Shown here: piece by piece, positions 1 through 52,366 of the stretch
How positions within the stretch are numbered: position 1 is the first letter of the stretch
Layout: the number at the start of each line of letters is the position of its first letter
Translations under genes and position numbers: made by a program
The notes under the pieces: generated by a model
What the model saw: only the letters and a program-made list of their open reading frames with translations
Databases searched by the model: none
What the model was told of the DNA's origin: nothing
Source of the DNA: a virus
Lineage: Duplodnaviria; Caudoviricetes
IMG/VR virus record: IMGVR_UViG_3300014208_000036
Location: 1-64,000 of that record
DNA length: 64,000 nt
Reading direction: 5' to 3' (one strand)

Positions 1-52
1 ACGTCCCACCGCGGTGAATCTTTCATCCCAGAAAGGGTATAAAGGTTTCAAG

Positions 53-586
53 ATGGCGATCATCAAAAACATCTCCCTTTACGATGCCGCACGAAACGAG
101 TACGTCAAGGTCGGTGAGGAGGCGACCCACGAAGGACGAGTTCTCCGGGTGTACAACCGTGATTTCCGAGCGATGTCGGATGTGTACACGTACGCCACGT
201 ACGCCGATGTGATCGAGGACAACGGTGCCGTGAAGGAGGTCATGGTCAACGCGAACTTCGAGTGCGATACCTCCGGTGGTCGAGCGATCGTGGATGCAAC
301 CGACGAGGCGATCGCCTGGAACGTGCGATGGTGCCACGAGCAATCGCAGAAGTACGAGCGCCTTGTGCACCTCAAGCAACTCGAGAAACTCGAGGAGGAG
401 CGAAATCGTCCGACCGTCGGAAAGCGAATGATCGTTGTCCGCGGACGCAAGGTTCCCGTGGGTCACCAGGGCACCGTCGCCTACATCAACCGTGAAGGAA
501 GTGTACTCGTCAAGGCCGATCACGAATGGCAGGATCGCAAGGCAGGAGGTGTTTGGGTCCCGGCAGCGTACCTCAAGGCGGTGTGA
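53..586 (+). CDS. Hypothetical early protein with C-terminal SH3/KOW-like motif
   Basis: ATG at 53 follows promoter; C-terminus VGKRMIVV...GHQGTVAYI. Confidence 0.7.
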   Translation: MAIIKNISLYDAARNEYVKVGEEATHEGRVLRVYNRDFRAMSDVYTYATYADVIEDNGAVKEVMVNANFECDTSGGRAIVDATDEAIAWNVRWCHEQSQKYERLVHLKQLEKLEEERNRPTVGKRMIVVRGRKVPVGHQGTVAYINREGSVLVKADHEWQDRKAGGVWVPAAYLKAV

Positions 587-618
587 AACTCTTCCGAAAG
601 AAGTGGTAGGATCGATCC

Positions 619-882
619 ATGCTGATCAAGAAGGAACTCCTCGTCCCCTACGACATCGTGAACGGTTCGTACCTCCTCGATGCTAAGCATCTGGTGGGGG
701 ATGATCTCTTCAAGATGCCCCGGAAGTTCGATGTTGACTTTGGGGGTGAATGGGGAATCGTCGAGTTCAAGTTCGATACCTTCACCAAGGACGATGGTGA
801 GGGGGATCCACGTTGGGAATACGTGAACGACGATGATGAGTACGCCGTCTACGTGTACCTGAAGCTTCCCGAGGGGTGTTAA
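619..882 (+). CDS. Small acidic hypothetical protein
   Basis: Leaderless ATG behind the promoter at 583. Confidence 0.75.
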   Translation: MLIKKELLVPYDIVNGSYLLDAKHLVGDDLFKMPRKFDVDFGGEWGIVEFKFDTFTKDDGEGDPRWEYVNDDDEYAVYVYLKLPEGC

Positions 883-902
883 TATCACGTGAGCCCGCGA
901 GA

Positions 903-1388
903 ATGAACCCGTACAGAGGCGAGATACAAACAACTCCGCGCCGAGCGCCCAGAGCATCGCTCCTCAGACGCCTCGGCGCCGCGTGGCGACGCGTTCCACG
1001 ACAGCTCGAATCCAGAACACTGAGGATGTCAGGAACTTTCGACGAATTGTCGACCTGGGCCGAGCGTTACAAAGCATCTCACCTGACGTTCAACCTTTCC
1101 CTCCACATGAACGTTCCATTCGATCTCCTCACAGAACGAAAGACCGCCGAACGTGGTGTGGGCGACTGGTTGAGGTACGTTCGTCTTTTTGGGCACGATA
1201 CCACGACCATCACCGCCGTGATGAACAAACGAACAGTCAGACAATTCGAGAAGGCGATCACACTGTATTACGATGTCAGACCATACCATCAATCACCGTG
1301 CATACCATCACACTGGGTCCGGTCCAATGCCCCCACGTTGACCAACATGGGCTCTTCATGCGAGGATTGTGGAATCCACCATCGATGA
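903..1388 (+). CDS. Hypothetical protein (start uncertain)
   Basis: Fills the gap between cassettes; no motif recognised. Confidence 0.5.
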   Translation: MNPYRGEIQTTPRRAPRASLLRRLGAAWRRVPRQLESRTLRMSGTFDELSTWAERYKASHLTFNLSLHMNVPFDLLTERKTAERGVGDWLRYVRLFGHDTTTITAVMNKRTVRQFEKAITLYYDVRPYHQSPCIPSHWVRSNAPTLTNMGSSCEDCGIHHR

Positions 1389-1456
1389 TATTCGTGTGCA
1401 CGTGGGGGCTGCTTTGAATTGTGCAATCGCTCGGTCCAAAGAGGTATATCTAGACC

Positions 1457-1627
1457 ATGAACATCGCCAAGAAGATCGCGAACAGGAAGTGGGACGAGAT
1501 CGCCTCTGCCACGACCCGAACCACCAACCGGTCCGGGCTTTCGAAGCCGACGAGGCGAGCGAAGCGGAAGGCGAATCGTCGGGCGATCCGTGAGGAGAAT
1601 CGTATCGCGTTCAACGACGCGGCGTGA
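1457..1627 (+). CDS. 56-aa basic hypothetical protein (not in ORF track)
   Basis: GTGCAA-N18-TATATC then ATG; MNIAKKIANRKWDEIAS...RIAFNDAA. Confidence 0.7.
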   Translation: MNIAKKIANRKWDEIASATTRTTNRSGLSKPTRRAKRKANRRAIREENRIAFNDAA

Positions 1628-1666
1628 CCGGGTGCAATGAATTCCTTCAACGAGGTATAACGAACC

Positions 1667-1927
1667 ATGATCCTCAAAAGTATCGAAGAGAAAACGACGC
1701 AGATCATGGCAAAGTTGGACGTCAAGGACCAGCAAGATCATGCCATGGTGAAATCCGACGTTCAACGTCTCCTGCGCGAGGGGTATTCGTTCCACGAAAC
1801 GTTGGAATACATGTCGACGTTCGAGGAGGTCAGCCCGGATCTCGATGAAGATGTTGCTCTGCGTCTTCGAGAGGATGTGGTCAAACGCTTCAACTTGCGT
1901 ATGAAGGTGAACCTTCAACCTCGATAA
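1667..1927 (+). CDS. Hypothetical protein
   Basis: Own promoter, leaderless ATG. Confidence 0.75.
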   Translation: MILKSIEEKTTQIMAKLDVKDQQDHAMVKSDVQRLLREGYSFHETLEYMSTFEEVSPDLDEDVALRLREDVVKRFNLRMKVNLQPR

Positions 1928-1942
1928 AGGTATATCTGGATC

Positions 1943-2246
1943 ATGAAAACGCAGGTCATCGACATCCAAAGCATCACCCCCGACATGGTCGTCCGAGCCT
2001 ACGTGGGGAAACCGGGATGCATGTGCGGGTGCAAGGGAAAGTACTACAGGAACGTCCCCGCGCCGAACGGCAACGACTCCGGGATCATCGATGCAAGGGA
2101 TGGTGACCAAGATCCTCAGGGTCCTCCAGGCGAACGAGGATCTCGTCGAGTCAGAAGAGGGTGCATTCGATGGTGAAATCATCGTCTTCGGTCCCCGCGA
2201 CGGAATCGCGAAGAAGAACTACGTCGTCTACCTTCTTCGCCCGTGA
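1943..2246 (+). pseudogene. Probable single gene broken by a +1 frameshift near 2097-2100 (GKPGCMCGCKGKY motif)
   Basis: Protein-like frame continues as MVTKILRVLQANE...YLLRP* (2100-2246) after the GGG run. Confidence 0.5.
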
Positions 2247-2284
2247 AGGTGAACCTTGACGCATCAACGTGGTAAGGTGGTCCC

Positions 2285-2596
2285 ATGCTGAATGACATGA
2301 AGTTTCCGACGCCCGTCTGGTTCATGAATCCATTGACAGGACACATTTACGAAGCGTTTCTCATCAAGGAGAGTACGATTCTCGGCGACGACCGGGTGGT
2401 CATTTACATTCCTGCTCAAGACCGCGCCGCTTACGCGGTGAAAGAACACCTGTACGATGATGAAAAAACCGCGCGTGAACGGATCAAGCGCGCCGAGCTC
2501 GAACGTAAAATCAAGGAAGGGCGTGAGGCCATCAAGGATGCGATGACGAAGCTTGGGCAGCTCGAGAACGAGCTTGCTTCATTGCTGGGACGGTGA
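2285..2596 (+). CDS. Hypothetical coiled-coil protein
   Basis: Own promoter; its TGA stop lies inside the next -35. Confidence 0.75.
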   Translation: MLNDMKFPTPVWFMNPLTGHIYEAFLIKESTILGDDRVVIYIPAQDRAAYAVKEHLYDDEKTARERIKRAELERKIKEGREAIKDAMTKLGQLENELASLLGR

Positions 2597-2628
2597 AACT
2601 TCAACCTCATTGAAGGTATAACTGGATC

Positions 2629-2982
2629 ATGGAGGCAAGGAAGCCTCCCCTGAAACGGAGAACGACCATGAACAAGCTCGCCTCGACCATCGCCGGTTTC
2701 ATCGCCCTCGCTGCCCTCGCCCTCCCGCTCGGTGTCGCCTTCGGAAACGGTGCATTCGACGGTCCCGCGGAGGACTTCGTGCGCGGGGACTTCGCCTCCT
2801 CGGCGAGCGTTCCGAGCATCCACGTGCCCCATGTGATCGTCCTCGATGATGTCATCATCCACGCCGACGCGGCGCACGAGGCGCGGACCGGTGCAAAGCC
2901 CTGCGTCGCCCGGAACGAGGGAACCCGGGACCTGGTCCAAGGATTCGGGAAGGTCCGCACCTACACGTTCTGCGGTCGGTGA
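2629..2982 (+). CDS. Predicted exported protein (signal-like segment from Met at 2668)
   Basis: MNKLASTIAGFIALAALALPLGVAFG hydrophobic stretch. Confidence 0.7.
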   Translation: MEARKPPLKRRTTMNKLASTIAGFIALAALALPLGVAFGNGAFDGPAEDFVRGDFASSASVPSIHVPHVIVLDDVIIHADAAHEARTGAKPCVARNEGTRDLVQGFGKVRTYTFCGR

Positions 2983-3014
2983 ACGATGGATGGGGGATGA
3001 GGTAAGGTGCAGCA

Positions 3015-3242
3015 ATGGACCGCGAATACCGGATCTTCATCCCCCTTCAAAGTGCCGACCCGATCGGCGGGTTCATCACCTCGTACGTCGATGCCGAGCC
3101 TGTCGACCAGGACACGATGATGGTGACAGCACGGAACAAGGGTGAAATCGACAGGTACCTGTACCACGATCTCGGCTGGTCCCGCGATGATGTCGATCTC
3201 GCCATGGATCGTATCGAGGTGGTGCAAAGGTCGATCTTCTAG
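3015..3242 (+). CDS. Hypothetical protein
   Basis: Own promoter, leaderless ATG. Confidence 0.75.
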   Translation: MDREYRIFIPLQSADPIGGFITSYVDAEPVDQDTMMVTARNKGEIDRYLYHDLGWSRDDVDLAMDRIEVVQRSIF

Positions 3243-3257
3243 GGGTATATCTGGATC

Positions 3258-3551
3258 ATGAAGAAGATTCAGCCCCGGACCCTGACCGTCGAATTCACCC
3301 CTTCAGAACTCCAGGTGATCTTCAGCGCCTTGTGTCGAGCAATTCACCTCCACGATCCGAACAATGCATTCGATCAGAACGACGAAAATCGGATGCGCAT
3401 GGAACGAAGCGTCCGTGAATGGTTCGGAAAATTGGCCTCAGAGGCAGGATACGTTTCGGATCGAAACATCAGGATGTCGGACATCACGCAACTCCTCCCG
3501 AAGAAGGAATGGGATCGTATCAAGGATTGTTACCCTTCGAAACGAAAGTAA
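3258..3551 (+). CDS. Hypothetical protein
   Basis: Own promoter, leaderless ATG. Confidence 0.75.
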   Translation: MKKIQPRTLTVEFTPSELQVIFSALCRAIHLHDPNNAFDQNDENRMRMERSVREWFGKLASEAGYVSDRNIRMSDITQLLPKKEWDRIKDCYPSKRK

Positions 3552-3612
3552 TCCGTAATCCAAACGTTGGGTGGGGGTGAAAATCCCCACCCAACCGAGG
3601 TATATCTGGATC

Positions 3613-3804
3613 ATGAAGAAGCGCTACACCGCGTACCTCCAGTTCGCCAACGACCTCACGAGCGAGGAGTACGTCGAGGAGATCGATGTCGATGCACGGA
3701 GCCTCGATGAGGCACGAAAGCTCGCGCAGGAGGAGCTCGATCGGGACTACGACGGTGGGCTCGTGATCGGTCCCGTCGTCGAGCGATTCGGTCTCTACAT
3801 GTGA
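3613..3804 (+). CDS. Hypothetical acidic protein
   Basis: ATG 12 nt after TATATC (MKKRYTAYL...). Confidence 0.75.
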   Translation: MKKRYTAYLQFANDLTSEEYVEEIDVDARSLDEARKLAQEELDRDYDGGLVIGPVVERFGLYM

Positions 3805-3836
3805 AACTCCCTGCGTAGAAAGGTTATAACCTGATC

Positions 3837-4028
3837 ATGATCGACCAACCCGCCGCCATCGTCGCCATCACCAAGAAACTCGACATGAACGTTCCGATCG
3901 TGAAGGAGTTCATGAGAACGTACACCACCTTCAAGAACGAAGGCGACAGCGACGAGGATGCCATGGAACGTGCGATCGGCCACGTCTACATGATGGGTCT
4001 GAAGGATGGGTCCCCTAGGGACCTCTAG
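3837..4028 (+). CDS. Hypothetical protein
   Basis: Own promoter, leaderless ATG. Confidence 0.75.
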   Translation: MIDQPAAIVAITKKLDMNVPIVKEFMRTYTTFKNEGDSDEDAMERAIGHVYMMGLKDGSPRDL

Positions 4029-4116
4029 AATACCTTCGAGGTCCGGATGAGGTAACCACCGTCCAACAATTGAAAGCCCTCACGTGGGTCAACGGTGGGC
4101 GGAGAACAGAGGAATC

Positions 4117-4578
4117 ATGACTGCCAAGGAAAAGGTCAAGCTGCTGGTGGGCCTCCTGGAGGAGATCAGGGACAGGAACTACCATGAGCCCGATGTGGAT
4201 TCACATCAGTACTGCCCGGACTGCGGGAACTCGCCGTACTGGAACCCTCCCCACGAGCAGGACTGCCTCGTTCCGAGGATCGCGGAAGCGCTGAGGTCGG
4301 TGAAGGAATCACCTCGAAGGAGGTATGATCGGGTCATGAAACAGATCGCGATGCTCGGAACCCCGGAACGACCCTACTGGCATTGGTCCTGCGATCGATG
4401 CGGTTTCGACGACAATCGGAACACCGACATGGCGTGCACTCAATGCGGTCGGCTCATCCAATGCGAGACCGCAGGTGGCCACGAGTGGTCTCCCGGTCAC
4501 CAGCACTGCGATGGTGGTTGCGGCACGGACCGGGAGACACTGAAGATCGATCAGGAGCATCGTCGGGAAGACTACTGA
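4117..4578 (+). CDS. Cys-rich (multiple CxxC) hypothetical protein with nested in-frame start at 4336
   Basis: CPDC, CDRC, CTQC, CDGGC motifs; SD-like AGAGGA before 4117. Confidence 0.7.
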   Translation: MTAKEKVKLLVGLLEEIRDRNYHEPDVDSHQYCPDCGNSPYWNPPHEQDCLVPRIAEALRSVKESPRRRYDRVMKQIAMLGTPERPYWHWSCDRCGFDDNRNTDMACTQCGRLIQCETAGGHEWSPGHQHCDGGCGTDRETLKIDQEHRREDY

Positions 4579-4617
4579 CGAGTGAACCTTACCCATCCGA
4601 TGAGGTAGATTCGAACC

Positions 4618-4854
4618 ATGGAAACCAGGCGACACATCCACATCATCGCGTCCGAGATCCTCAAGGATTGCACGACGCTGAACATCGCAGCGAAGGTGTA
4701 CCTGAAGGCGATGCTCTGCCTCGAGACCATCGACGATTCCTACGGTGCCGACTCGGCACGTGAAATCATCCTGTACTTCCTCTCGAACGCCGCGACGTAC
4801 CGCGGCGAAACCGCCAAACGCTTGAAGGCAGAGCTCAAGGACCACCTGAAATGA
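4618..4854 (+). CDS. Hypothetical phage protein
   Basis: Own promoter; YG.DS...IILYFLSNA.TYRGE.AKR.K.EL. Confidence 0.75.
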   Translation: METRRHIHIIASEILKDCTTLNIAAKVYLKAMLCLETIDDSYGADSAREIILYFLSNAATYRGETAKRLKAELKDHLK

Positions 4855-5093
4855 AGAAGGTCGTCATCAGAAGCCTCACGAGCCCACGTGGATGTTGGGA
4901 CGGCGAGGCGACTGAGATCCTCGTCGACGGCGAGCGTGTTGCGTTCGGCAACTACGGGGGCGAACCGGAGGACAACCTGCGCTGCAGGGACTACGATTGG
5001 GTCGAGGATGCGTTCGTCAAACTAGCGAAGGCACTGGGCGCAGAGGTCGAGCTCGTGGAGGACAACGAAGTGAATGATAACCTTCCCCTGTAG
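4851..5093 (+). CDS. Hypothetical protein
   Basis: ATGA-coupled to the upstream gene. Confidence 0.7.
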   Translation: MKKVVIRSLTSPRGCWDGEATEILVDGERVAFGNYGGEPEDNLRCRDYDWVEDAFVKLAKALGAEVELVEDNEVNDNLPL

Positions 5094-5136
5094 TAGGATC
5101 GAATCAATCAGGAAGTAAATTTTCAAACCAAAATAT

Positions 5137-5176
5137 GCGGTCGCTGGTCCAGCGGTTCGATTCCGCGGCGATCGCC
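5137..5176 (+). ncRNA. tRNA top-half (acceptor + T-arm) mini-RNA
   Basis: GCGGTCGC pairs with GCGATCGC; T-arm GCGG-TTCGATT-CCGC; 7-nt linker replaces the D and anticodon arms. Confidence 0.6.
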
Positions 5177-5216
5177 CGATGGTGAAACTTCACCCTGAAC
5201 TGAGGTAAACCTGATC

Positions 5217-5453
5217 ATGGAATACAGCCTCATCGAATGTCGCTGCTGCAGCATTGGCGGGAAGTCGTTCTGGAATCCTCGTACCGGGTCGTACGAGGCA
5301 CCCGCCCCGGGTTGGGGCAGGATCGCACGCATCGACGGTCCAGATCTCATCTGCCCCGAATGCAGGGAGGACCCTGTCGCCGCGTTGGATTCCCTGAAGC
5401 TCGACGGGTACGAGAACGCGTACATCGTCGAGTGGGGTGAACCTTCCCTCTAA
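5217..5453 (+). CDS. Small CxxC protein
   Basis: Own promoter; CRCC and CPEC motifs. Confidence 0.75.
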   Translation: MEYSLIECRCCSIGGKSFWNPRTGSYEAPAPGWGRIARIDGPDLICPECREDPVAALDSLKLDGYENAYIVEWGEPSL

Positions 5454-5472
5454 TGTGGGGTAGAACTGGATC

Positions 5473-5670
5473 ATGAAGGATTCAACGACAACCGTCTCGA
5501 TGACCTGCACCGAGGCTTCCCGGCGATTTCGGGAAGCGGCTGCGAGATGCCCGCATTACAAGGTGCACCTTCTTGCCCAGGCAGACCTTCTCCAGGGATT
5601 CGGTGACGTGGTTTTCCCTGAACACCTCAAGGAAGTCCATGCATTTGTCTTCGGTGATGAAACCCCATGA
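5473..5670 (+). CDS. Hypothetical protein
   Basis: Own promoter. Confidence 0.7.
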   Translation: MKDSTTTVSMTCTEASRRFREAAARCPHYKVHLLAQADLLQGFGDVVFPEHLKEVHAFVFGDETP

Positions 5671-5870
5671 AGCACACCGTCGTCATCACCCTCAACGGGA
5701 CACGCTTCGCCACGATGCGTGCTGAGGAAAGGTCGGGCGATGCCTCGATGGTTCGGGTCTACGTACCGGAGCTCGAGGAACTCCTCGGATTCTCCCGGTC
5801 GACCAGGACGCTCATCAGGACCGACCGACAGAACACGATCGTGTACAGGCTCAGATCGTACTCGGTGTGA
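5667..5870 (+). CDS. Hypothetical protein
   Basis: ATGA-coupled; TGA stop lies in the next -35. Confidence 0.7.
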   Translation: MKHTVVITLNGTRFATMRAEERSGDASMVRVYVPELEELLGFSRSTRTLIRTDRQNTIVYRLRSYSV

Positions 5871-5904
5871 AAACGAGCAGGTGTGTGTGAGGTATAACTA
5901 GATC

Positions 5905-6183
5905 ATGGCAAACAATCACCACGCCCACGTCTACCGCACCTGGGAAGACTTCTCCAAGGCATGGATCCCCAAGGCTCAGCGGTGGGCTCGTCGCATCTGG
6001 AACGAGCACGTTGCCAGGCACGGCAACGTCCCGTACATCACGAAGTGCTCTGTCTGCTCGGGTCGAGAACAGGATCACGAAGTTCGGCGCAAGTACGGGA
6101 ACAAGCGCGGCTTCCATCGCCCCACGAAGGTGGAGCGTGATGAGCTGCTCTCGCCCGAGGGGTGTAAACGAACTGGTGGGTGA
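5905..6183 (+). CDS. Hypothetical basic protein
   Basis: Own promoter. Confidence 0.7.
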   Translation: MANNHHAHVYRTWEDFSKAWIPKAQRWARRIWNEHVARHGNVPYITKCSVCSGREQDHEVRRKYGNKRGFHRPTKVERDELLSPEGCKRTGG

Positions 6184-6197
6184 GGTATAACAGGATC

Positions 6198-6404
6198 ATG
6201 GATAAGGAAGAACTCTCCAAGCACATCTCAAATCTGGCGTTCGACGATGACCTCAACGAGGAATTCATCGATGAGGCGAACGGGGCGAGCGAACGGTTGG
6301 TCGCGCTGCGTCGACTGTTCAGAGGACATCCCTACGAGGCGAAGTTCACGGAGATGATCGCAGCATGCGATCACATCGCGGCGACGATCGCGCAACACGT
6401 GTGA
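6198..6404 (+). CDS. Hypothetical protein
   Basis: ATG 12 nt after TATAAC. Confidence 0.75.
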   Translation: MDKEELSKHISNLAFDDDLNEEFIDEANGASERLVALRRLFRGHPYEAKFTEMIAACDHIAATIAQHV

Positions 6405-6436
6405 AAACGAACGGGTGAATGAGGTATAACTAGATC

Positions 6437-6640
6437 ATGGTCAACAAACCGATTGGTTCGAGCATGTGTTTCACCGGGGGTGCCGAGCCTTGCACCCCAA
6501 TCGTTTCGGTTGTCAAGTCCACCTATCATGGTGCCGGTCCTGGCGACCGGGCCATCCTGATCGATACAGGGGAACATGGTGGGATCGAATTGTCCGAGGA
6601 AACTCTTCAAACGATTCTTCGTTGGGTCAACGAGAGGTAG
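6437..6640 (+). CDS. Hypothetical protein
   Basis: Last cassette of the array. Confidence 0.75.
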   Translation: MVNKPIGSSMCFTGGAEPCTPIVSVVKSTYHGAGPGDRAILIDTGEHGGIELSEETLQTILRWVNER

Positions 6641-7060
6641 ATCATGAGCATGTTAAGCTCCTATGGGGGTGGATCAAGACCTTCGTGCTGCGGGCCCTCC
6701 AACAATTCATGAAGCTGCCACGGCCCGATCGGGCGGGGCCTCAAGGGGCCCCGCCGAATGACGGTCGTGAAGGGGTAGGGGCGGCCCCCTAAAAAGGCCC
6801 CCTAAATGGGGTGGGGCCCCTGGGGCTTGCAACCTTAGCGGTGAATGGCCGCTCGTGGGGGTGCCATGGATCCTACGTCACACGTCACATGATTTTTTCA
6901 CGTTCTGATCAGTCCCCTCGAAAATCCCGGGAAACTTTTCCTGATTGGACGTCCGTTCGCCAACAGTCAACAGCGCCCAAAAATCCCGGGAAATTTTCGA
7001 CGCCATGGTGATGGTGGCTGTGAACCACTGTAACCAACCGTGGTACGGTTATCGTAGGTC
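6641..7060. repeat. Non-coding spacer with GC hairpin, GGCCCCCTAAA x2 and AAAATCCCGGGAAA(C/T)TTTTC-like repeat x2
   Basis: 9-bp stem 6732-6755; near-palindromic repeats at 6921-6940 and 6980-6998. Confidence 0.7.
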
Positions 7061-7336
7061 ATGAAATTGTTGATTTTGAGTATCAATTCAAACCCACTCA
7101 GGCTCGATGAGGGGATTCCAAGGCTCGTCCCTGTGCGTTACGATCTGCTGAAGGCCAACGCCGAGGAGGCAGAACTCGAGGATCGGCTTTATGAGGCCCT
7201 CCGCCTTCTGCCTGGCGACCTTGTTCGACCTCGATTCCATGAGTACGGTTACCACGATAACCTGCAGCACCGCGGGATCGTTCTGTCGATCAACGATGGT
7301 AACTTGCTGCTCCTCTGGTCGGACGGTTGTGAATGA
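7061..7336 (+). CDS. SH3/KOW-like paralogue family member 1
   Basis: LPGDLVRPRF...RGIVLS...LLLWS. Confidence 0.75.
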   Translation: MKLLILSINSNPLRLDEGIPRLVPVRYDLLKANAEEAELEDRLYEALRLLPGDLVRPRFHEYGYHDNLQHRGIVLSINDGNLLLLWSDGCE

Positions 7337-7372
7337 TTGGGTGGACCTTCGTTCGGTAAAAGTCCAAAATAT

Positions 7373-7666
7373 ATGAAATTGCTGGTGATCCCAACCAACC
7401 CGAATTCATCCCTGATCAACTCGGGTTTATTTTCAACGGGTTGGCTGCCGATCCGTCACGATCGGGTGAAACCTACCCGCAAAGTTGATATCGTCGACTT
7501 CATCCAACGTAGAAATGAGGCCAAGGACCTACAACCCGGCGAATTGGTTCGACCACGATACCATGAATACGAACATCAGGACGACGCCGCCGCGGCCGCC
7601 TGGGGCATCGTCGTGGCGAACTACGGGGACAGGTTATTTTTCATCGTGTCGGACGAATGGTGTTGA
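7373..7666 (+). CDS. Paralogue 2
   Basis: QPGELVRPRY...WGIVVA; N-terminus MKLL shared with member 1. Confidence 0.75.
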   Translation: MKLLVIPTNPNSSLINSGLFSTGWLPIRHDRVKPTRKVDIVDFIQRRNEAKDLQPGELVRPRYHEYEHQDDAAAAAWGIVVANYGDRLFFIVSDEWC

Positions 7667-8043
7667 TGGGAGCAAACAGTATGATGTTGGTGAATTTTCC
7701 GTTGACGGTTGCCGGGATGAACGAGAGGTACGCCTTGAACCTGCACGATTACCCGATTCCCATCGGCGGGGCTCCCGATATTTCGTTCGATGAAATGATC
7801 AGGTTGATCAACGACACGTCGACGAAGGTTTTCTACGAGACCGTGGTGCCCGTCCCTGGCGAGATCGTCAGGCCGAGGTGGCACGGGAGTTCGATTAAAC
7901 GTGTTGGACGGCGCGATAGCAGGGATGCTCGAGGGATCGTCCTCGCGAACGATGGTGAACACCTGCTCGTTGGCATAACGTTGGGATGGTTCCTGTGGAG
8001 GGGTGACGCCGAAACCGTCAATCTGACGCGGTCGTACGTGTGA
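7657..8043 (+). CDS. Paralogue 3
   Basis: VPGEIVRPRW...RGIVLA. Confidence 0.75.
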   Translation: MVLMGANSMMLVNFPLTVAGMNERYALNLHDYPIPIGGAPDISFDEMIRLINDTSTKVFYETVVPVPGEIVRPRWHGSSIKRVGRRDSRDARGIVLANDGEHLLVGITLGWFLWRGDAETVNLTRSYV

Positions 8044-8083
8044 GCGTTACGTGTGAGCGCTATCGAATAATGGCTTGAACTTC

Positions 8084-8434
8084 ATGATTGAACTTAAAAC
8101 CTACATCGGTGAACCTGCCCAACCGGACCTCATGTACGATTGGCCAGTTCGTATCGATTGCCCCGTTCACCGAACGAAGAATTACTTCGCCGACCGCAGG
8201 CGCATTCTATCGGAGGATGTCCATCAATGGATCACCGAGAATCCGCCCATGCCGGGTGATTTCGTGCTCAGGAACGCATGGGTCCTAAAGAAGCTGCATG
8301 ATCGAGGTGGACGGGGTGAAGCCGACATCGCGGGCGACGATAATCAAATTGGTATCATCCTGTCCGCGGTTCCGAGTTTCATCGACGGATCGACAAAGTG
8401 TGCTTCGATCATCGTTGCCTGGAGCGGTGAATGA
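8084..8434 (+). CDS. Paralogue 4
   Basis: MPGDFVLRNAW...IGIILS...VAWS. Confidence 0.75.
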   Translation: MIELKTYIGEPAQPDLMYDWPVRIDCPVHRTKNYFADRRRILSEDVHQWITENPPMPGDFVLRNAWVLKKLHDRGGRGEADIAGDDNQIGIILSAVPSFIDGSTKCASIIVAWSGE

Positions 8435-8465
8435 GCGAGCGTGATCAAACGGGGGCTTGAACTTC

Positions 8466-8783
8466 ATGGTTGAACTTAGGGAATACACCGGTCGCCCTGA
8501 ACTCCGTGAGCTCGTGTACGACTGGCCGATTCCGATCGAATTTCCGAAGTTACGGGCGGACATCAACAACGCCGCATCTGACGGGCAAGTGCGTGAGTTG
8601 ATCATCGCAAATTCTCCCGAACCTGGAACGCTTGTCGTCAGGAACATCTGGGCATTTAGGACGCTCATCGCCGTGAGGATGATGGGTGGTGGAGATCGCT
8701 GGTTCGGGATCGTTGTCTCGAGCACTCCGTCAACATCACAAGGAACGAGTGTTTGCCTCGTTGCCTGGGGGGTTTGTGAATGA
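8466..8783 (+). CDS. Paralogue 5
   Basis: EPGTLVVRNIW...FGIVVS...VAWG; 5' DNA nearly identical to member 4. Confidence 0.75.
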   Translation: MVELREYTGRPELRELVYDWPIPIEFPKLRADINNAASDGQVRELIIANSPEPGTLVVRNIWAFRTLIAVRMMGGGDRWFGIVVSSTPSTSQGTSVCLVAWGVCE

Positions 8784-9076
8784 GGCGCATCATGGAATAC
8801 GACGTTGAATATTTCCTGTTGAAGGTCGACGCCGCGCGATTCCTGCCCGTCGCTATCGCGGACGAAGCGCGCCTCCCGGTCCTGCCACGCAACGAATTGT
8901 TCATCGATTGGTGGCGTGACAACGTTCCTGATACAGGCGAGGCGGTCATTCGGGCATGGCAATGGCAATTTTGGGTCGAGGGTACATGGAGAAATTTGAA
9001 CAACACACCCCAAATTGGGATCGTTGTTGGAAAGTCGATCGATCCAAGGTTGACGCTCACGATCGCATGGATGTGA
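8780..9076 (+). CDS. Paralogue 6
   Basis: DTGEAVIRAW...IGIVVG...IAWM. Confidence 0.75.
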   Translation: MRRIMEYDVEYFLLKVDAARFLPVAIADEARLPVLPRNELFIDWWRDNVPDTGEAVIRAWQWQFWVEGTWRNLNNTPQIGIVVGKSIDPRLTLTIAWM

Positions 9077-12999: not shown

Positions 13000-13211
13000 T
13001 GGCGGCTAATTTTTACGGCGTTAAGTTAACCAACGGGATTGAAGAGTCGACAATCGACATTCGAATCGAGGATGCGATGAAAATCGTTCCTGGCGATCGG
13101 TTGCTTGATTCCAGCATCCATGAAAATCGTTTCCGTGATTGCATCATCAAACGTCGGGTGATACGGATGAAAGGTTCACAAATTTTGGAAGTTACATTTT
13201 ATGTCGATTGA
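12999..13211 (+). CDS. Hypothetical protein
   Basis: SD AGGA; overlaps the next gene. Confidence 0.6.
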
Positions 13212-13758
13212 AATTTACGTTAGCACGGACATTGAAACGGGTGGCCCGATTCCTGGACCAAATTCGATGCTATCATTTGGATCAGCAGCCTTTACGTTAG
13301 CTGGTCAGGTTGGACACTTCTCGGCCAACCTGCACGAACTACCGGATTCAGTGATCGACCCGGTCACCAAACGAGAATTCTGGGATAAAAATCCTGAAGC
13401 TTGGGCCGAGTGTCGAAAGGATCTTCAGAACCCAAAGGAGGTGATGGAGAATTACGTGGGTTGGCTCAACAACCTACCTGGAAAACCGGTCTTCGTGGGG
13501 TACCCAGCGTCATTTGATTTCATGTTTGTTTATTGGTATTTGATCAAATTTACGGGTCAATCACCATTTTCGTTCTCGGCGTTGGACATAAAATCGTATA
13601 CAATGGCAGTCCTCAAGACGGAATTTAGGGAAACAACGAAGAAGCGTATGCCCAAACGATGGTTTCCCAAATCAAAGCATTCGCATGTTGCCATTGAGGA
13701 TGCGATTGAACAGGGCGAGTTGTTCATGAACATTTTGAAGGAAAATGAACGATGGTGA
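13201..13758 (+). CDS. DEDDh 3'-5' exonuclease (Rv2179c/RNase AS-like)
   Basis: STDIETGG (Exo I), ASFDF (Exo II), HVAIEDA (Exo III). Confidence 0.85.
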
Positions 13759-24334: not shown

Positions 24335-24491
24335 GCTCACGTAGTTTAATGGAAAAGCACAGTGCATTGATGATCTCGAGTAAACATCGATGACGTTCAA
24401 CGAATGTTATTCTAGACGATAGTCGTTGGATGTAGTGCGAAGAACGTCTCCCAGTGGGGAGATGGAGCAGGTTCGATTCCTGCCGAGAGCG
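24335..24491 (+). ncRNA. tRNA-like RNA with an ~85-nt hairpin inserted in the D-loop and a non-canonical anticodon loop
   Basis: GCTCACG/CGAGAGC acceptor, GTTT/GAAC D-stem, TCTCC/GGAGA stem, GCAGG-TTCGATT-CCTGC. Confidence 0.6.
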
Positions 24492-26388: not shown

Positions 26389-26459
26389 CGCGAGTCGGCG
26401 CGTCGACGCAATGTGTTCATGAACGTTGTGTGTAGGTTCAAATCCTACGCTCGCGACCA
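26389..26459 (+). tRNA. Atypical tRNA(CAT) with reduced D-arm
   Basis: CGCGAGT/GCTCGCG-A-CCA; T-arm GTAGG/CCTAC; loop TTCATGA. Confidence 0.6.
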
Positions 26460-43392: not shown

Positions 43393-43476
43393 AAGATCAT
43401 GGCGGAATAGGCATACGCTGTCCATTTAAACTGGACTGTGCGCAAGCATGTGTTGGTTCGAATCCAACTGATAGAG
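43393..43476 (+). tRNA. tRNA-Leu(TAA) with weak (4-bp) acceptor, possible pseudogene
   Basis: Loop TTTAAAC; long V-arm. Confidence 0.6.
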
Positions 43477-45010: not shown

Positions 45011-45088
45011 GGTGTCGTAGGTGTAATTGGTACGCACGGTTGACTGTGAATCAGCAGGATGAGGGTTCGAATCCCCGACGACACACCA
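45011..45088 (+). tRNA. tRNA-His(GTG)
   Basis: G-1; loop CTGTGAA; CCA. Confidence 0.9.
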
Positions 45089-46178: not shown

Positions 46179-46257
46179 GCCCCGGTATCGGACGGGTCTT
46201 CTAAGCCTGAGCACCGTAGTTGGATCGACGGGGGTTCGAATCCCTCCCGGGGTGCCA
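46179..46257 (+). tRNA. D-armless tRNA-Arg(TCT) with 20-nt variable region
   Basis: GCCCCGG/CCGGGGT-G-CCA; loop CTTCTAA. Confidence 0.7.
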
Positions 46258-51124: not shown

Positions 51125-52366
51125 ATGATCAGCATCATGGAACCGTTAGTTGTTTCCTTCCTCAGGAATCGTAGTTTTGATGATCTCGAGGCCGATCATG
51201 GTGTTTGCGCTCGATTGTCGAAGTGCGGGCGAAAGGTTTCGCTTAACTATGATCAACTTCTCGTGAAGAACGGCGATCCTGTCGCTGAACAGTGCAGGGG
51301 TCTGATCGTTCTTCTCGATGAAGTCATCGATCCGTCCACCTCTTGGAAAGCTAAGTCGCCAGGTAACGTTACGGTCATCGCATGGCCAATGAATCGATTT
51401 TACAACTTTGGTGATCATTCGGGTGCGAATGTTGATTGGTCCGATAAGAACTTAAGGGTGTACGAAAAACTCGATGGCACGATGATCGTTCTTTATTGGG
51501 ATCCGTCTTCTTCGCGGTGGTGCGTCGCCACGAGGGGCGTCCCCGACGCCGATGTTCCGATCTCAAGCAACGATCTTGAACTTCAGACGATGACGTTCTC
51601 CGAACTGTTCTTCAGGGCCCTACGTGAAACACGTGAAGCGGAACAGGATCGTCCATTGGGATGGGAACCAGACGGTTTCGATGAAATTGTTCACCTGAAC
51701 AAGGATCTTACGTACGTTTTCGAATTAACATCGCAGTACAACAAGGTCGTTGTTCATTACGAAGCTCCTCGGGTTACGTTGCTGGCCGCGCGTCACACGA
51801 CCTCGGGCCATGAAATTTCCATCGAAGAACTTCGCATTCAACACGTTCAACGACCTGTATCCTGGCAGCTCAATGAACCGTCAGCCATCTTTGCGTTCGT
51901 TGACTCCGCTGATCCTTCGAAGCTCGAAGGTTGCGTTGTGATCGATTCAAAGTTCAATCGCTTGAAGATCAAGAATAAGGCATGGGTTCTCGCTTCACGT
52001 ACGAAGGATCGAATCATGTGCTCAAGGCGAGCGATCATCGAATCGATCATTGCAGGTACGATCGATGACGTAATTCCACTTTTGAGCGACGAAATTGCAT
52101 CGAAGGTTTGCGACCTTCGTGGAAAGGTTGCATCATTGTTCAGGATCGTTGATTCGACGTTCCATGAATTCCATGCACATGCTGGCAATGATCGTAAAGC
52201 ATTTGCTCAGCTCGTGAAGTGTTCCGATCTTCGATGGAAGCAACCTTTCTTCCAACTGTACGACGGCCGAGCTGATTCGACGTCCGAGTGGGCTGAGAAG
52301 GCGGTAAAAGGCGGAACGATGACATCCAGTACCCTCGAGAATATTCTACGAGCCGTGGATAATTAA
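51125..52366 (+). CDS. T4 Rnl1-like RNA ligase
   Basis: WPMNRFYN, motif I EKLDGT, VATRG, FELTS, motif IV EGCVV, motif V KIKN. Confidence 0.85.
   Translation: MISIMEPLVVSFLRNRSFDDLEADHGVCARLSKCGRKVSLNYDQLLVKNGDPVAEQCRGLIVLLDEVIDPSTSWKAKSPGNVTVIAWPMNRFYNFGDHSGANVDWSDKNLRVYEKLDGTMIVLYWDPSSSRWCVATRGVPDADVPISSNDLELQTMTFSELFFRALRETREAEQDRPLGWEPDGFDEIVHLNKDLTYVFELTSQYNKVVVHYEAPRVTLLAARHTTSGHEISIEELRIQHVQRPVSWQLNEPSAIFAFVDSADPSKLEGCVVIDSKFNRLKIKNKAWVLASRTKDRIMCSRRAIIESIIAGTIDDVIPLLSDEIASKVCDLRGKVASLFRIVDSTFHEFHAHAGNDRKAFAQLVKCSDLRWKQPFFQLYDGRADSTSEWAEKAVKGGTMTSSTLENILRAVDN

What the first reader, a model, noticed from the sequence alone, without database searches (positions are those of the whole stretch)
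5070..5181. A promoter cassette with no protein gene, expressing a 40-nt tRNA 'top-half' minihelix
Seen: the cassette has the standard GTGAAT-N18-TAGGAT promoter, but AATC replaces ATG at the expected start. An AT-rich 31-nt leader follows, then GCGGTCGC-TGGTCCA-GCGG-TTCGATT-CCGC-G-GCGATCGC-C: an 8-bp acceptor-like stem plus a canonical T-loop, with no D or anticodon arm. The next promoter begins 6 nt later. Known: RNase P, CCA-adding enzyme and EF-Tu mainly recognise the acceptor/T-arm minihelix. Inference: an early-expressed RNA decoy or regulator of tRNA-sensing or tRNA-modifying host or defence proteins, treated as an interchangeable 'gene' in the early array.
Basis: partly seen in the sequence, partly recalled or inferred. 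Interest (0 to 1): 0.76.

Follow-up and report, generated by a model that had tools for sequence, protein, structure and literature searches.

The report
Deleted tRNA-like gene behind early promoter
The 40-base tRNA "top half" behind an early phage promoter is real, but it is what a recent 46-base deletion left of an odd 86-base tRNA-like gene that a sister phage still carries whole, so it is more likely a fresh remnant than a purpose-built decoy RNA.

Summary
A consensus early promoter (5070-5099) is followed by AAT where eight sister cassettes have a leaderless ATG. A 31-nt AT-rich leader follows, then a 40-nt hairpin (5137-5176) with an 8-bp acceptor-like stem and a canonical T-loop.

A sister phage lineage (L004/L016), about 92% identical here, has the same promoter and leader at the same site. 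Its element is 46 nt longer: an 86-nt class-II tRNA-like gene that ARAGORN calls tRNA-Leu(GAG) and Rfam scores below threshold.

The window's form is that gene minus 46 nt, removed between two GCGG words (D-loop and T-stem). The "linker" TGGTCCA is U8, G9, the 5' D-stem strand and A14. The rest is identical between lineages, so the deletion is recent and no covariation can be read.

The short form is not an assembly error. It is abundant in two groundwater metagenomes from different studies, beside the long form.

Most likely it is a young tRNA-gene remnant that is still transcribed and probably still trimmed by tRNA-processing enzymes. A retained top-half function (processing signal or decoy) is not excluded.

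Earlier notes of this scan describe conserved top-half minihelices in other phages and one deletion-scar case. This locus fits the scar type.

The parts
4851..5093 (+). Upstream early gene (80 aa, P0001). Its TAG stop (5091-5093) abuts the -10 box of the RNA cassette.
   Evidence: ORF list and translation. A 95%-identical homologue (P0003) lies in the sister lineage L004.
5070..5099 (+). Early promoter, GTGAAT-N18-TAGGAT.
   Evidence: It matches the repeated cassette promoter and is identical in L004 and L016. The same promoter type with a leaderless ATG recurs in distant relatives G001 and G002. A generic sigma-70 scan does not call it.
5106..5136 (+). Inferred transcript start (AAT in the place of ATG), followed by a 31-nt AT-rich 5' leader.
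   Evidence: The start is inferred by analogy with eight cassettes where ATG lies 6 nt after the -10 box. There is one substitution against L004, at 5126.
5137..5176 (+). The tRNA top-half hairpin. In tRNA numbering: G-1 (5137), acceptor 1-7 (5138-5144), U8, G9, D-stem 5' strand and A14 (5145-5151). Then the T-arm (5151-5167, with an A49.G65 mismatch), acceptor 66-72 (5168-5174), C73 (5175) and C74 (5176).
   Evidence: Numbering is fixed by alignment to the 86-nt gene of L004 and its ARAGORN cloverleaf. Fold.
5152..5155 (+). Deletion junction. A single GCGG stands where the long form has two GCGG words 46 nt apart (D-loop G15-G18 and T-stem 50-53).
   Evidence: Alignment A1. A Logan contig of the long form splits on the window at 5155/5152 with 42 unaligned letters plus 4 shared letters.
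5175..5178 (+). C73-C74-C75-G: the discriminator plus an encoded CC, with no terminal A.
   Evidence: Several bona fide tRNA genes of this phage have the same N73-CC-G(A) trailer.
5182..5216 (+). The next cassette promoter (GTGAAA-N18-TAAACC), followed by the leaderless ATG of the 78-aa gene at 5217-5453 (P0002).
   Evidence: The -10 box is TAGAAC in L004 and has lost one base in the window lineage.

Best explanation
The element is the stump of a stand-alone early RNA gene.

The ancestor, still present in the sister lineage, was an 86-nt class-II tRNA-like gene with its own leaderless-type early promoter and a 31-nt leader. In the window's lineage a 46-bp deletion between two GCGG words (slippage or microhomology recombination) fused the D-loop to the T-stem. 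It removed the 3' D-stem strand, the anticodon arm, the variable arm and C49.

What is left folds as the acceptor/T-arm coaxial stack, so the 'minihelix' is a by-product of where the two GCGG words happened to lie.

Shown: the homology, the junction, the intact promoter, and the reality and abundance of the short allele.

Inferred: it is still transcribed from about 5106. RNase P and 3' trimming or CCA completion probably still act on it, because the acceptor/T-arm stack with N73-CC is a known minimal substrate. It can no longer decode, and it has no function that was selected in this form.
For: (1) The orthologous site in L004 has the same promoter and leader, with one substitution, and a 46-nt longer element. 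ARAGORN folds that element as a cloverleaf, tRNA-Leu(GAG). L016, from another metagenome, has the same long form.

(2) Every nucleotide of the short form is accounted for by the long form minus 46 nt between GCGG repeats. The long form has a perfect 5-bp T-stem (CGCGG/CCGCG), and the deletion replaces C49 with A14, giving the A.G mismatch seen in the window.

(3) An insertion creating a D-stem partner, anticodon arm, variable arm and C49 at once is implausible, so the deletion is the derived state.

(4) There are no substitutions in the retained 40 nt. A block at about 4944-5197 has only 3 substitutions against 7% overall, and it includes coding DNA. This fits a recently shared tract rather than RNA-specific constraint.

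(5) In contrast, the true tRNA-Lys(UUU) at the head of the same array differs between the lineages by several compensatory pairs.

(6) No homologue of the element exists in the family's distant relatives G001 and G002, so it is a recent, dispensable acquisition.

(7) The 46-nt indel is not a multiple of three, so no ORF is conserved across it.
Against: The short-form lineage is not rare. Contig depth is 128 against 5.6 for the long form in run X1, and 236 against 216 in run X2 from another study. So the loss costs little, or the needed part was kept.

The parent gene's lower half is already aberrant: no nucleotide 26, a C.U mismatch in the anticodon stem, C33, and a best Rfam clan score of only 17.6 bits. 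Its top half and tertiary-core nucleotides are perfect. This would fit a gene whose function always lay in the top half.

The promoter and leader are untouched. Earlier notes of this scan (unchecked here) describe conserved top-half minihelices in other phages.
Confidence: 0.62

Rival explanations
1. The top half is the working part. The parent RNA never served as a decoder. It acted through its acceptor/T-arm, either as an RNase P/RNase Z cutting signal that punctuates read-through early transcripts (t-element-like), or as a decoy or ligand for tRNA-binding host or defence proteins or synthetases. It carries G-1:C73 and G3.U70. Under this reading the deletion is neutral or even a streamlining.
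For: The short allele is abundant in two studies. The parent's lower half is aberrant while its top half and core are perfect. The hairpin keeps a 12/13-bp coaxial stack, a canonical T-loop and N73-CC.

Minihelices are substrates of RNase P, AlaRS, HisRS and EF-Tu (PMC11221534, PMC9976931). G-1:C73 and G3.U70 occur in none of the phage's 39 tRNAs except G3.U70 in tRNA-Ala. No terminators separate the cassettes, so read-through transcripts would meet this element. t-elements are a precedent (PMC1920247).
Against: There is no covariation and no second independent short copy. Only one lineage has it, and the change is very recent. No homologue exists in the related jumbo phages G001 and G002, which have the same promoter arrays. 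The flanking genes have their own promoters, so punctuation is not obviously needed. The phage's own tRNA-His has A73, which makes a C73-based His identity in this host doubtful.
Confidence: 0.3
2. The hairpin is a transcription terminator or attenuator for the upstream early genes.
For: It is a GC-rich stable hairpin (-19.6 kcal/mol) lying between two genes.
Against: It has no U-run, and the terminator scan finds nothing in 4800-5500. It lies downstream of a promoter rather than upstream of one. It is homologous to a cloverleaf gene. Its T-loop and acceptor features are tRNA-specific.
Confidence: 0.03
3. The short form is an assembly or sequencing artefact (a collapsed repeat).
For: The junction lies in a 4-nt repeat, and both alleles occur in the same samples.
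Against: The short form is present in the IMG/VR record and in an independent JGI contig that is identical over 11.4 kb. It is also in Logan contigs of two runs from different studies, at depths 128 and 236. A 4-nt repeat cannot collapse an assembly graph built on 31-mers.
Confidence: 0.02
4. The cassette encodes a micro-peptide: either the 16-aa ORF from ATG 5135, or a 30-aa frame from 5106 or 5119 using a non-ATG start.
For: Open frames exist (read).
Against: The leaderless position holds AAT. There is no Shine-Dalgarno sequence at a usable distance from ATG 5135. The 46-nt indel shifts every frame between the two lineages.
Confidence: 0.01

Closest known systems
Phage-encoded tRNA genes and truncated tRNA gene fragments or pseudogenes (for example PMC9897764 on partial tRNA genes in prokaryotes)
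   Same: It derives from a cloverleaf-type gene in a phage that carries about 40-60 tRNAs. It has lost the parts needed for decoding and is missed by tRNA finders.
   Different: Common fragments are 3' or 5' halves left at integration sites. This one is an internal deletion that leaves both acceptor strands and the T-arm, so it still folds as a closed minihelix. It also keeps its own consensus early promoter.
Synthetic tRNA minihelices (acceptor/T-arm stacks) used as substrates of RNase P, AlaRS, HisRS and EF-Tu (PMC11221534; PMC9976931)
   Same: The architecture is the same: a 12-13-bp coaxial acceptor/T stack with a T-loop and N73-CC. It carries G3.U70 (alanine determinant) and G-1:C73 (bacterial histidine determinant) by sequence.
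   Different: It is natural, and it has a 6-7-nt bulge (U8, G9, D-stem strand, A14) and an A49.G65 mismatch at the junction. No processing or charging has been tested.
t-elements of plant mitochondria (Forner et al. 2007, PMC1920247)
   Same: It is a tRNA-like structure inside a transcription unit that could direct RNase P or RNase Z cleavage and define mRNA ends.
   Different: t-elements are conserved and their cleavage sites have been mapped. Here there are no RNA data and no conservation of the short form, and the neighbouring genes have their own promoters.
Bacterial tRNA-His and tRNA-Sec (8-bp acceptor stem, 8/5 geometry)
   Same: Both the long and short forms can pair G-1 with C73, giving an 8-bp acceptor helix. 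The best Rfam clan hit of the long form is tRNA-Sec (17.6 bits).
   Different: The anticodon is neither GUG nor UCA. The score is far below the gathering threshold of 47. The phage's own tRNA-His has A73.

Membership tests
Canonical tRNA gene | A cloverleaf with a D-arm and an anticodon arm, detected by ARAGORN or Rfam RF00005 at threshold | tested here: not met
   The window element gets no ARAGORN call and no Rfam hit even at E<=10. The long form in L004 is called by ARAGORN, but its best Rfam clan score is 17.6 bits, below threshold.
tRNA-gene remnant by internal deletion | A full-length homologue at the orthologous site in a close relative | tested here: met
   L004 and L016 carry the 86-nt form between the same flanking genes, with the same promoter and leader.
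tRNA-gene remnant by internal deletion | A clean junction explained by a deletion mechanism, with loss of essential parts | tested here: met
   46 nt are missing between two GCGG words. The D-stem 3' strand, the anticodon arm, the variable arm and C49 are lost.
Conserved tRNA-like minihelix or processing element (t-element-like) | An acceptor stem plus T-arm without an anticodon arm, lying within a transcription unit | tested here: met
   Sequence and fold. No terminator is found between the cassettes.
Conserved tRNA-like minihelix or processing element (t-element-like) | The minihelix form is conserved among relatives, with compensatory changes | tested here: not met
   The only relative has the long form. 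There are no substitutions in the retained stems, and no copy in G001 or G002.
Conserved tRNA-like minihelix or processing element (t-element-like) | RNA ends mapped at the element | not testable with these tools
   No RNA run is listed as a holder. All runs that were laid are DNA contigs.
Intrinsic terminator | A GC-rich hairpin followed by a U-run | tested here: not met
   Zero terminator-like sites in 4800-5500. The tail reads CCGATGG.
Histidine- or alanine-accepting minihelix | The G-1:C73 pair and the G3.U70 pair in the acceptor helix | tested here: met
   Read from the sequence, with numbering fixed by the long form. These pairs are rare among the phage's tRNAs. The identity rules come from PMC9976931.
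Histidine- or alanine-accepting minihelix | Actual aminoacylation, with correct 5' processing that leaves G-1 | not testable with these tools
   This needs RNase P, HisRS and AlaRS assays.

The most novel reading that the evidence does not exclude
The parent is a non-decoding, early-expressed tRNA mimic whose working part is the acceptor/T-arm, carrying His-type G-1:C73 and Ala-type G3.U70 marks. The window's lineage is then a natural minimisation that keeps this function. It would act either as a processing handle for early transcripts or as a chargeable decoy for tRNA-binding host or defence proteins. The locus would catch the birth of a phage 'minihelix element' from a tRNA gene by a single microhomology deletion.
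Probability: 0.2. Interest if true: 0.7.

Novelty: new member of a known kind. Interest (0 to 1): 0.36.

Why it matters
As it stands, this is a well-documented case of a tRNA-like gene being cut down to its top half by one small deletion. Both alleles coexist in the same groundwater communities.

It cautions against reading isolated tRNA minihelices as designed decoys without looking at relatives.

It also offers a natural long/short allele pair. That pair could be used to test whether the acceptor/T-arm alone is enough for whatever early-expressed tRNA-like RNAs do in jumbo phages. It also suggests one route by which the conserved minihelix elements noted elsewhere in this scan could arise.

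Tried and rejected
- **Reference phage searches.** Near, distant and protein searches against the reference phage collection gave nothing for the region or for a 599-aa protein.
- **Exact-pattern scans of IMG/VR** for the minihelix found nothing; the window's own record is masked.
- **Relatives of the flanking proteins.** P0001 has 52-55% homologues only in unrelated phage contexts with no such element. P0002 has only weak zinc-ribbon-like hits.
- **Metagenome and genome pattern hits** L015, L017 and L018 are chance matches in non-tRNA DNA, so no bacterial source tRNA was found.
- **Rfam** at E<=10 on 5000-5300 gave no hit.
- **BLAST of the long form against phages** gave T-arm matches only.
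- **Long form against G001, G002 and the rest of G000** (blastn-short and nhmmer): no homologue.
- **Two minihelix-like hits from my T-arm scan were rejected.** G001 13133 is the variable arm plus T-arm of a class-II tRNA-like gene. G002 227300 is a palindromic hairpin.
- **Expression.** No RNA holder was listed for the stretch.
- **Run coverage.** Runs X3 and X4 cover only 4646-4942 and say nothing about the element.
- **Generic sigma-70 scan** does not call the cassette promoters. Their reality rests on recurrence and fixed spacing to the ATG.
- **Micro-ORF readings** were rejected because the 46-nt indel shifts the frame.

Full report
**Context.** The window is the first 64 kb of an 88.8-kb IMG/VR phage record that CheckV rates 23% complete. 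It carries 39 ARAGORN tRNAs at 23-50 kb. Its first 8-9 kb are richer in GC (55-58%) than the rest (37-50%, apart from one 59% bin at 40-42 kb).

Two complete or near-complete jumbo phage records are distant relatives: G001 (369 kb, with terminal repeats) and G002 (340 kb). Their large proteins are 34-55% identical to the window's. They carry about 58 tRNA calls plus a tmRNA, and their cassette arrays use the same promoter type. The reference phage collection has no match.

**The observation.**
- GTGAAT-N18-TAGGAT lies at 5070-5099.
- The loose promoter pattern is enriched: 16 hits against 6.3 +/- 2.3 in shuffles.
- In eight cassettes the ATG lies exactly 6 nt after the -10 box, which implies leaderless mRNAs. 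Here AAT stands at that place, 5106.
- A 31-nt AT-rich stretch follows, then the 40-nt hairpin at 5137-5176. Its minimum-energy fold is the 8-bp stem plus 4-bp T-stem structure, holding 83% of the ensemble.
- The next promoter starts at 5182, so the gap is 5 nt.
- Neither ARAGORN nor Rfam calls the element.

**Relatives of the locus.** The upstream 80-aa protein has one close homologue, at 95% identity. Its contig, L004, comes from a JGI groundwater-type metagenome and carries the same array at 88-96% DNA identity with mosaic cassettes.

L006 holds the downstream protein. It is 100% identical to the window over 11.4 kb, so it is the same genome and not independent.

Alignment of the intergenic region shows that L004 has the same promoter, the same leader (one A/G change) and the same downstream sequence. 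The difference is 46 extra nucleotides inside the hairpin.

A metagenome pattern scan found a second contig with the long form. This is L016, from another project, and it is 99.9% identical to L004.

**What the long form is.** ARAGORN folds L004:6288-6373 as an 86-nt class-II cloverleaf, tRNA-Leu(GAG).

Its canonical features:
- a 7-bp acceptor stem (C1-G72 to C7-G66, with G3.U70);
- U8, and a 4-bp D-stem;
- a D-loop with A14, G15, G18G19 and A21;
- a short variable arm, and C48;
- a perfect 5-bp T-stem (CGCGG/CCGCG) with T-loop TTCGATT;
- C73 followed by CC.

The base before position 1 is G, which pairs with C73.

Its lower half is abnormal. There is no nucleotide 26, the anticodon stem has a C.U mismatch, and position 33 is C. 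The best Rfam clan hit is tRNA-Sec at 17.6 bits (E 0.44), far below threshold.

Among the phage's 39 tRNAs none has C73. G3.U70 occurs only in tRNA-Ala. G-1 occurs only in tRNA-His (which has A73) and in one tRNA-Met. The N73-CC-G(A) trailer is shared with several true tRNA genes of the phage.

**How the short form arose.** The long form contains GCGG twice: in the D-loop (G15-G18) and in the T-stem (positions 50-53), 46 nt apart. The window has one GCGG.

The 7-nt "linker" TGGTCCA is therefore U8, G9, the 5' D-stem strand and A14. A14 now sits opposite G65, which explains the 4-bp T-stem with an A.G mismatch.

An insertion that simultaneously created a D-stem partner, an anticodon arm, a variable arm and C49 is not credible. 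The short form is therefore the derived state, produced by a microhomology deletion.

**Is the short allele real, and how common is it?** Logan contigs of two groundwater runs from different studies carry the short form with no differences, at depth 128 in X1 and 236 in X2.
- In X1, a 391-nt contig at depth 5.6 splits on the window at 5155/5152. It has 42 unaligned letters plus the 4 shared letters, which is the 46-nt long form.
- In X2, a contig with the sister lineage's substitutions has depth 216.

So both alleles coexist, and the short-form lineage is successful.

**Age and selection.** Over 1.16 kb the two lineages differ at 7% of sites. The block at about 4944-5197 has only three substitutions. 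It includes the 3' end of the upstream gene, and the assembler merged both lineages there.

This looks like a recently shared tract, not RNA-specific constraint. The retained 40 nt show no change, so covariation cannot be assessed.

The true tRNA-Lys(UUU) at the head of the same array offers a contrast. It is cut by the window's first base, and it differs between the lineages by several compensatory pairs in the D and anticodon stems. That is what a selected tRNA looks like.

No homologue of the long or short element exists in G001, G002 or elsewhere in this genome.

**Mechanism.** The promoter is intact, so transcription from about 5106 is expected (inferred).

The acceptor/T-arm stack with N73-CC is a known minimal substrate for bacterial RNase P. 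Minihelices are also accepted by AlaRS, HisRS and EF-Tu (PMC11221534; PMC9976931). The transcript is therefore probably still cut at the 5' side of the helix and trimmed at the 3' side, releasing a roughly 40-43-nt RNA and a downstream RNA that runs into gene 5217 (inferred).

It cannot decode. Whether this residual processing or the released RNA matters to the phage is open.

The main rival is that the parent never decoded and worked through its top half, as a t-element-like cutting signal (PMC1920247) or as a decoy. Three things keep this rival alive: the aberrant lower half of the parent, the abundance of the short allele, and unchecked notes of this scan on conserved minihelices in other phages. 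Against it stand the absence of any conservation signal and the absence of the element from the related jumbo phages.

Terminator, artefact and micro-peptide readings are rejected.

It is a new member of a known kind (truncated tRNA-like gene). Its useful twist is a natural long/short allele pair under an early promoter.

Noticed in passing
window 1-13; L006:720-794; L004:520-594: A canonical tRNA-Lys(UUU) sits at the head of the early array and is cut by the window's first base. The two lineages differ in it by several compensatory pairs in the D and anticodon stems. In the window lineage a low-GC HNH-type endonuclease gene is inserted just upstream of it (about L006:330-719).
   Followed up: partly
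L004:6287-6373 (also L016:2349-2435, minus strand): The intact parent gene combines a GAG anticodon and class-II shape with C73, a G-1:C73 pair and G3.U70. It also has C33 and lacks nucleotide 26. It may be a mischarged or non-decoding tRNA-like RNA with its own early promoter.
   Followed up: partly
window 5182-5216: The -10 box of the next cassette reads TAAACC in the window lineage and TAGAAC in L004, a one-base loss. Gene 5217 may therefore depend more on read-through from the 5070 promoter in the short-form lineage.
   Followed up: no
window 26389-26458: A 67-nt tRNA-like element that ARAGORN misses lies between tRNA-Trp and tRNA-Gln. It has a 7-bp acceptor stem, a perfect T-arm and an encoded ACCA, but no normal D or anticodon arms.
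   Followed up: no
window 43396-43472; G001 about 13105-13215 (minus strand): A class-II tRNA-like gene lies between tRNA-Cys and tRNA-Thr. Rfam scores it 34.9 bits and ARAGORN misses it. A recognisable homologue sits in the same slot of the distant relative G001, so this one is conserved.
   Followed up: partly
window 24335-24491 and 46179-46254: Two more tRNA hits found by Rfam only. The first spans 157 nt, which suggests a tRNA with a roughly 80-nt insertion.
   Followed up: no
window 45012-45088: The phage tRNA-His has an encoded G-1 but A73, not the usual bacterial C73. This may hint at the host's HisRS type.
   Followed up: no
G001 336639-336792; G002 51217-51369: The related jumbo phages each carry a tandem pair of tRNA-like genes with odd anticodon-loop lengths (ARAGORN 'tRNA-???'). 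Each genome also has a tmRNA.
   Followed up: no
window 1-9000 against 10000-64000: The early cassette array has 55-58% GC in its first 8 kb, while later bins are mostly 37-50%. The cassettes are mosaic between lineages, and a 57-nt junction sequence recurs at different cassettes (L004:7367-7423 matches window 2614-2670).
   Followed up: partly
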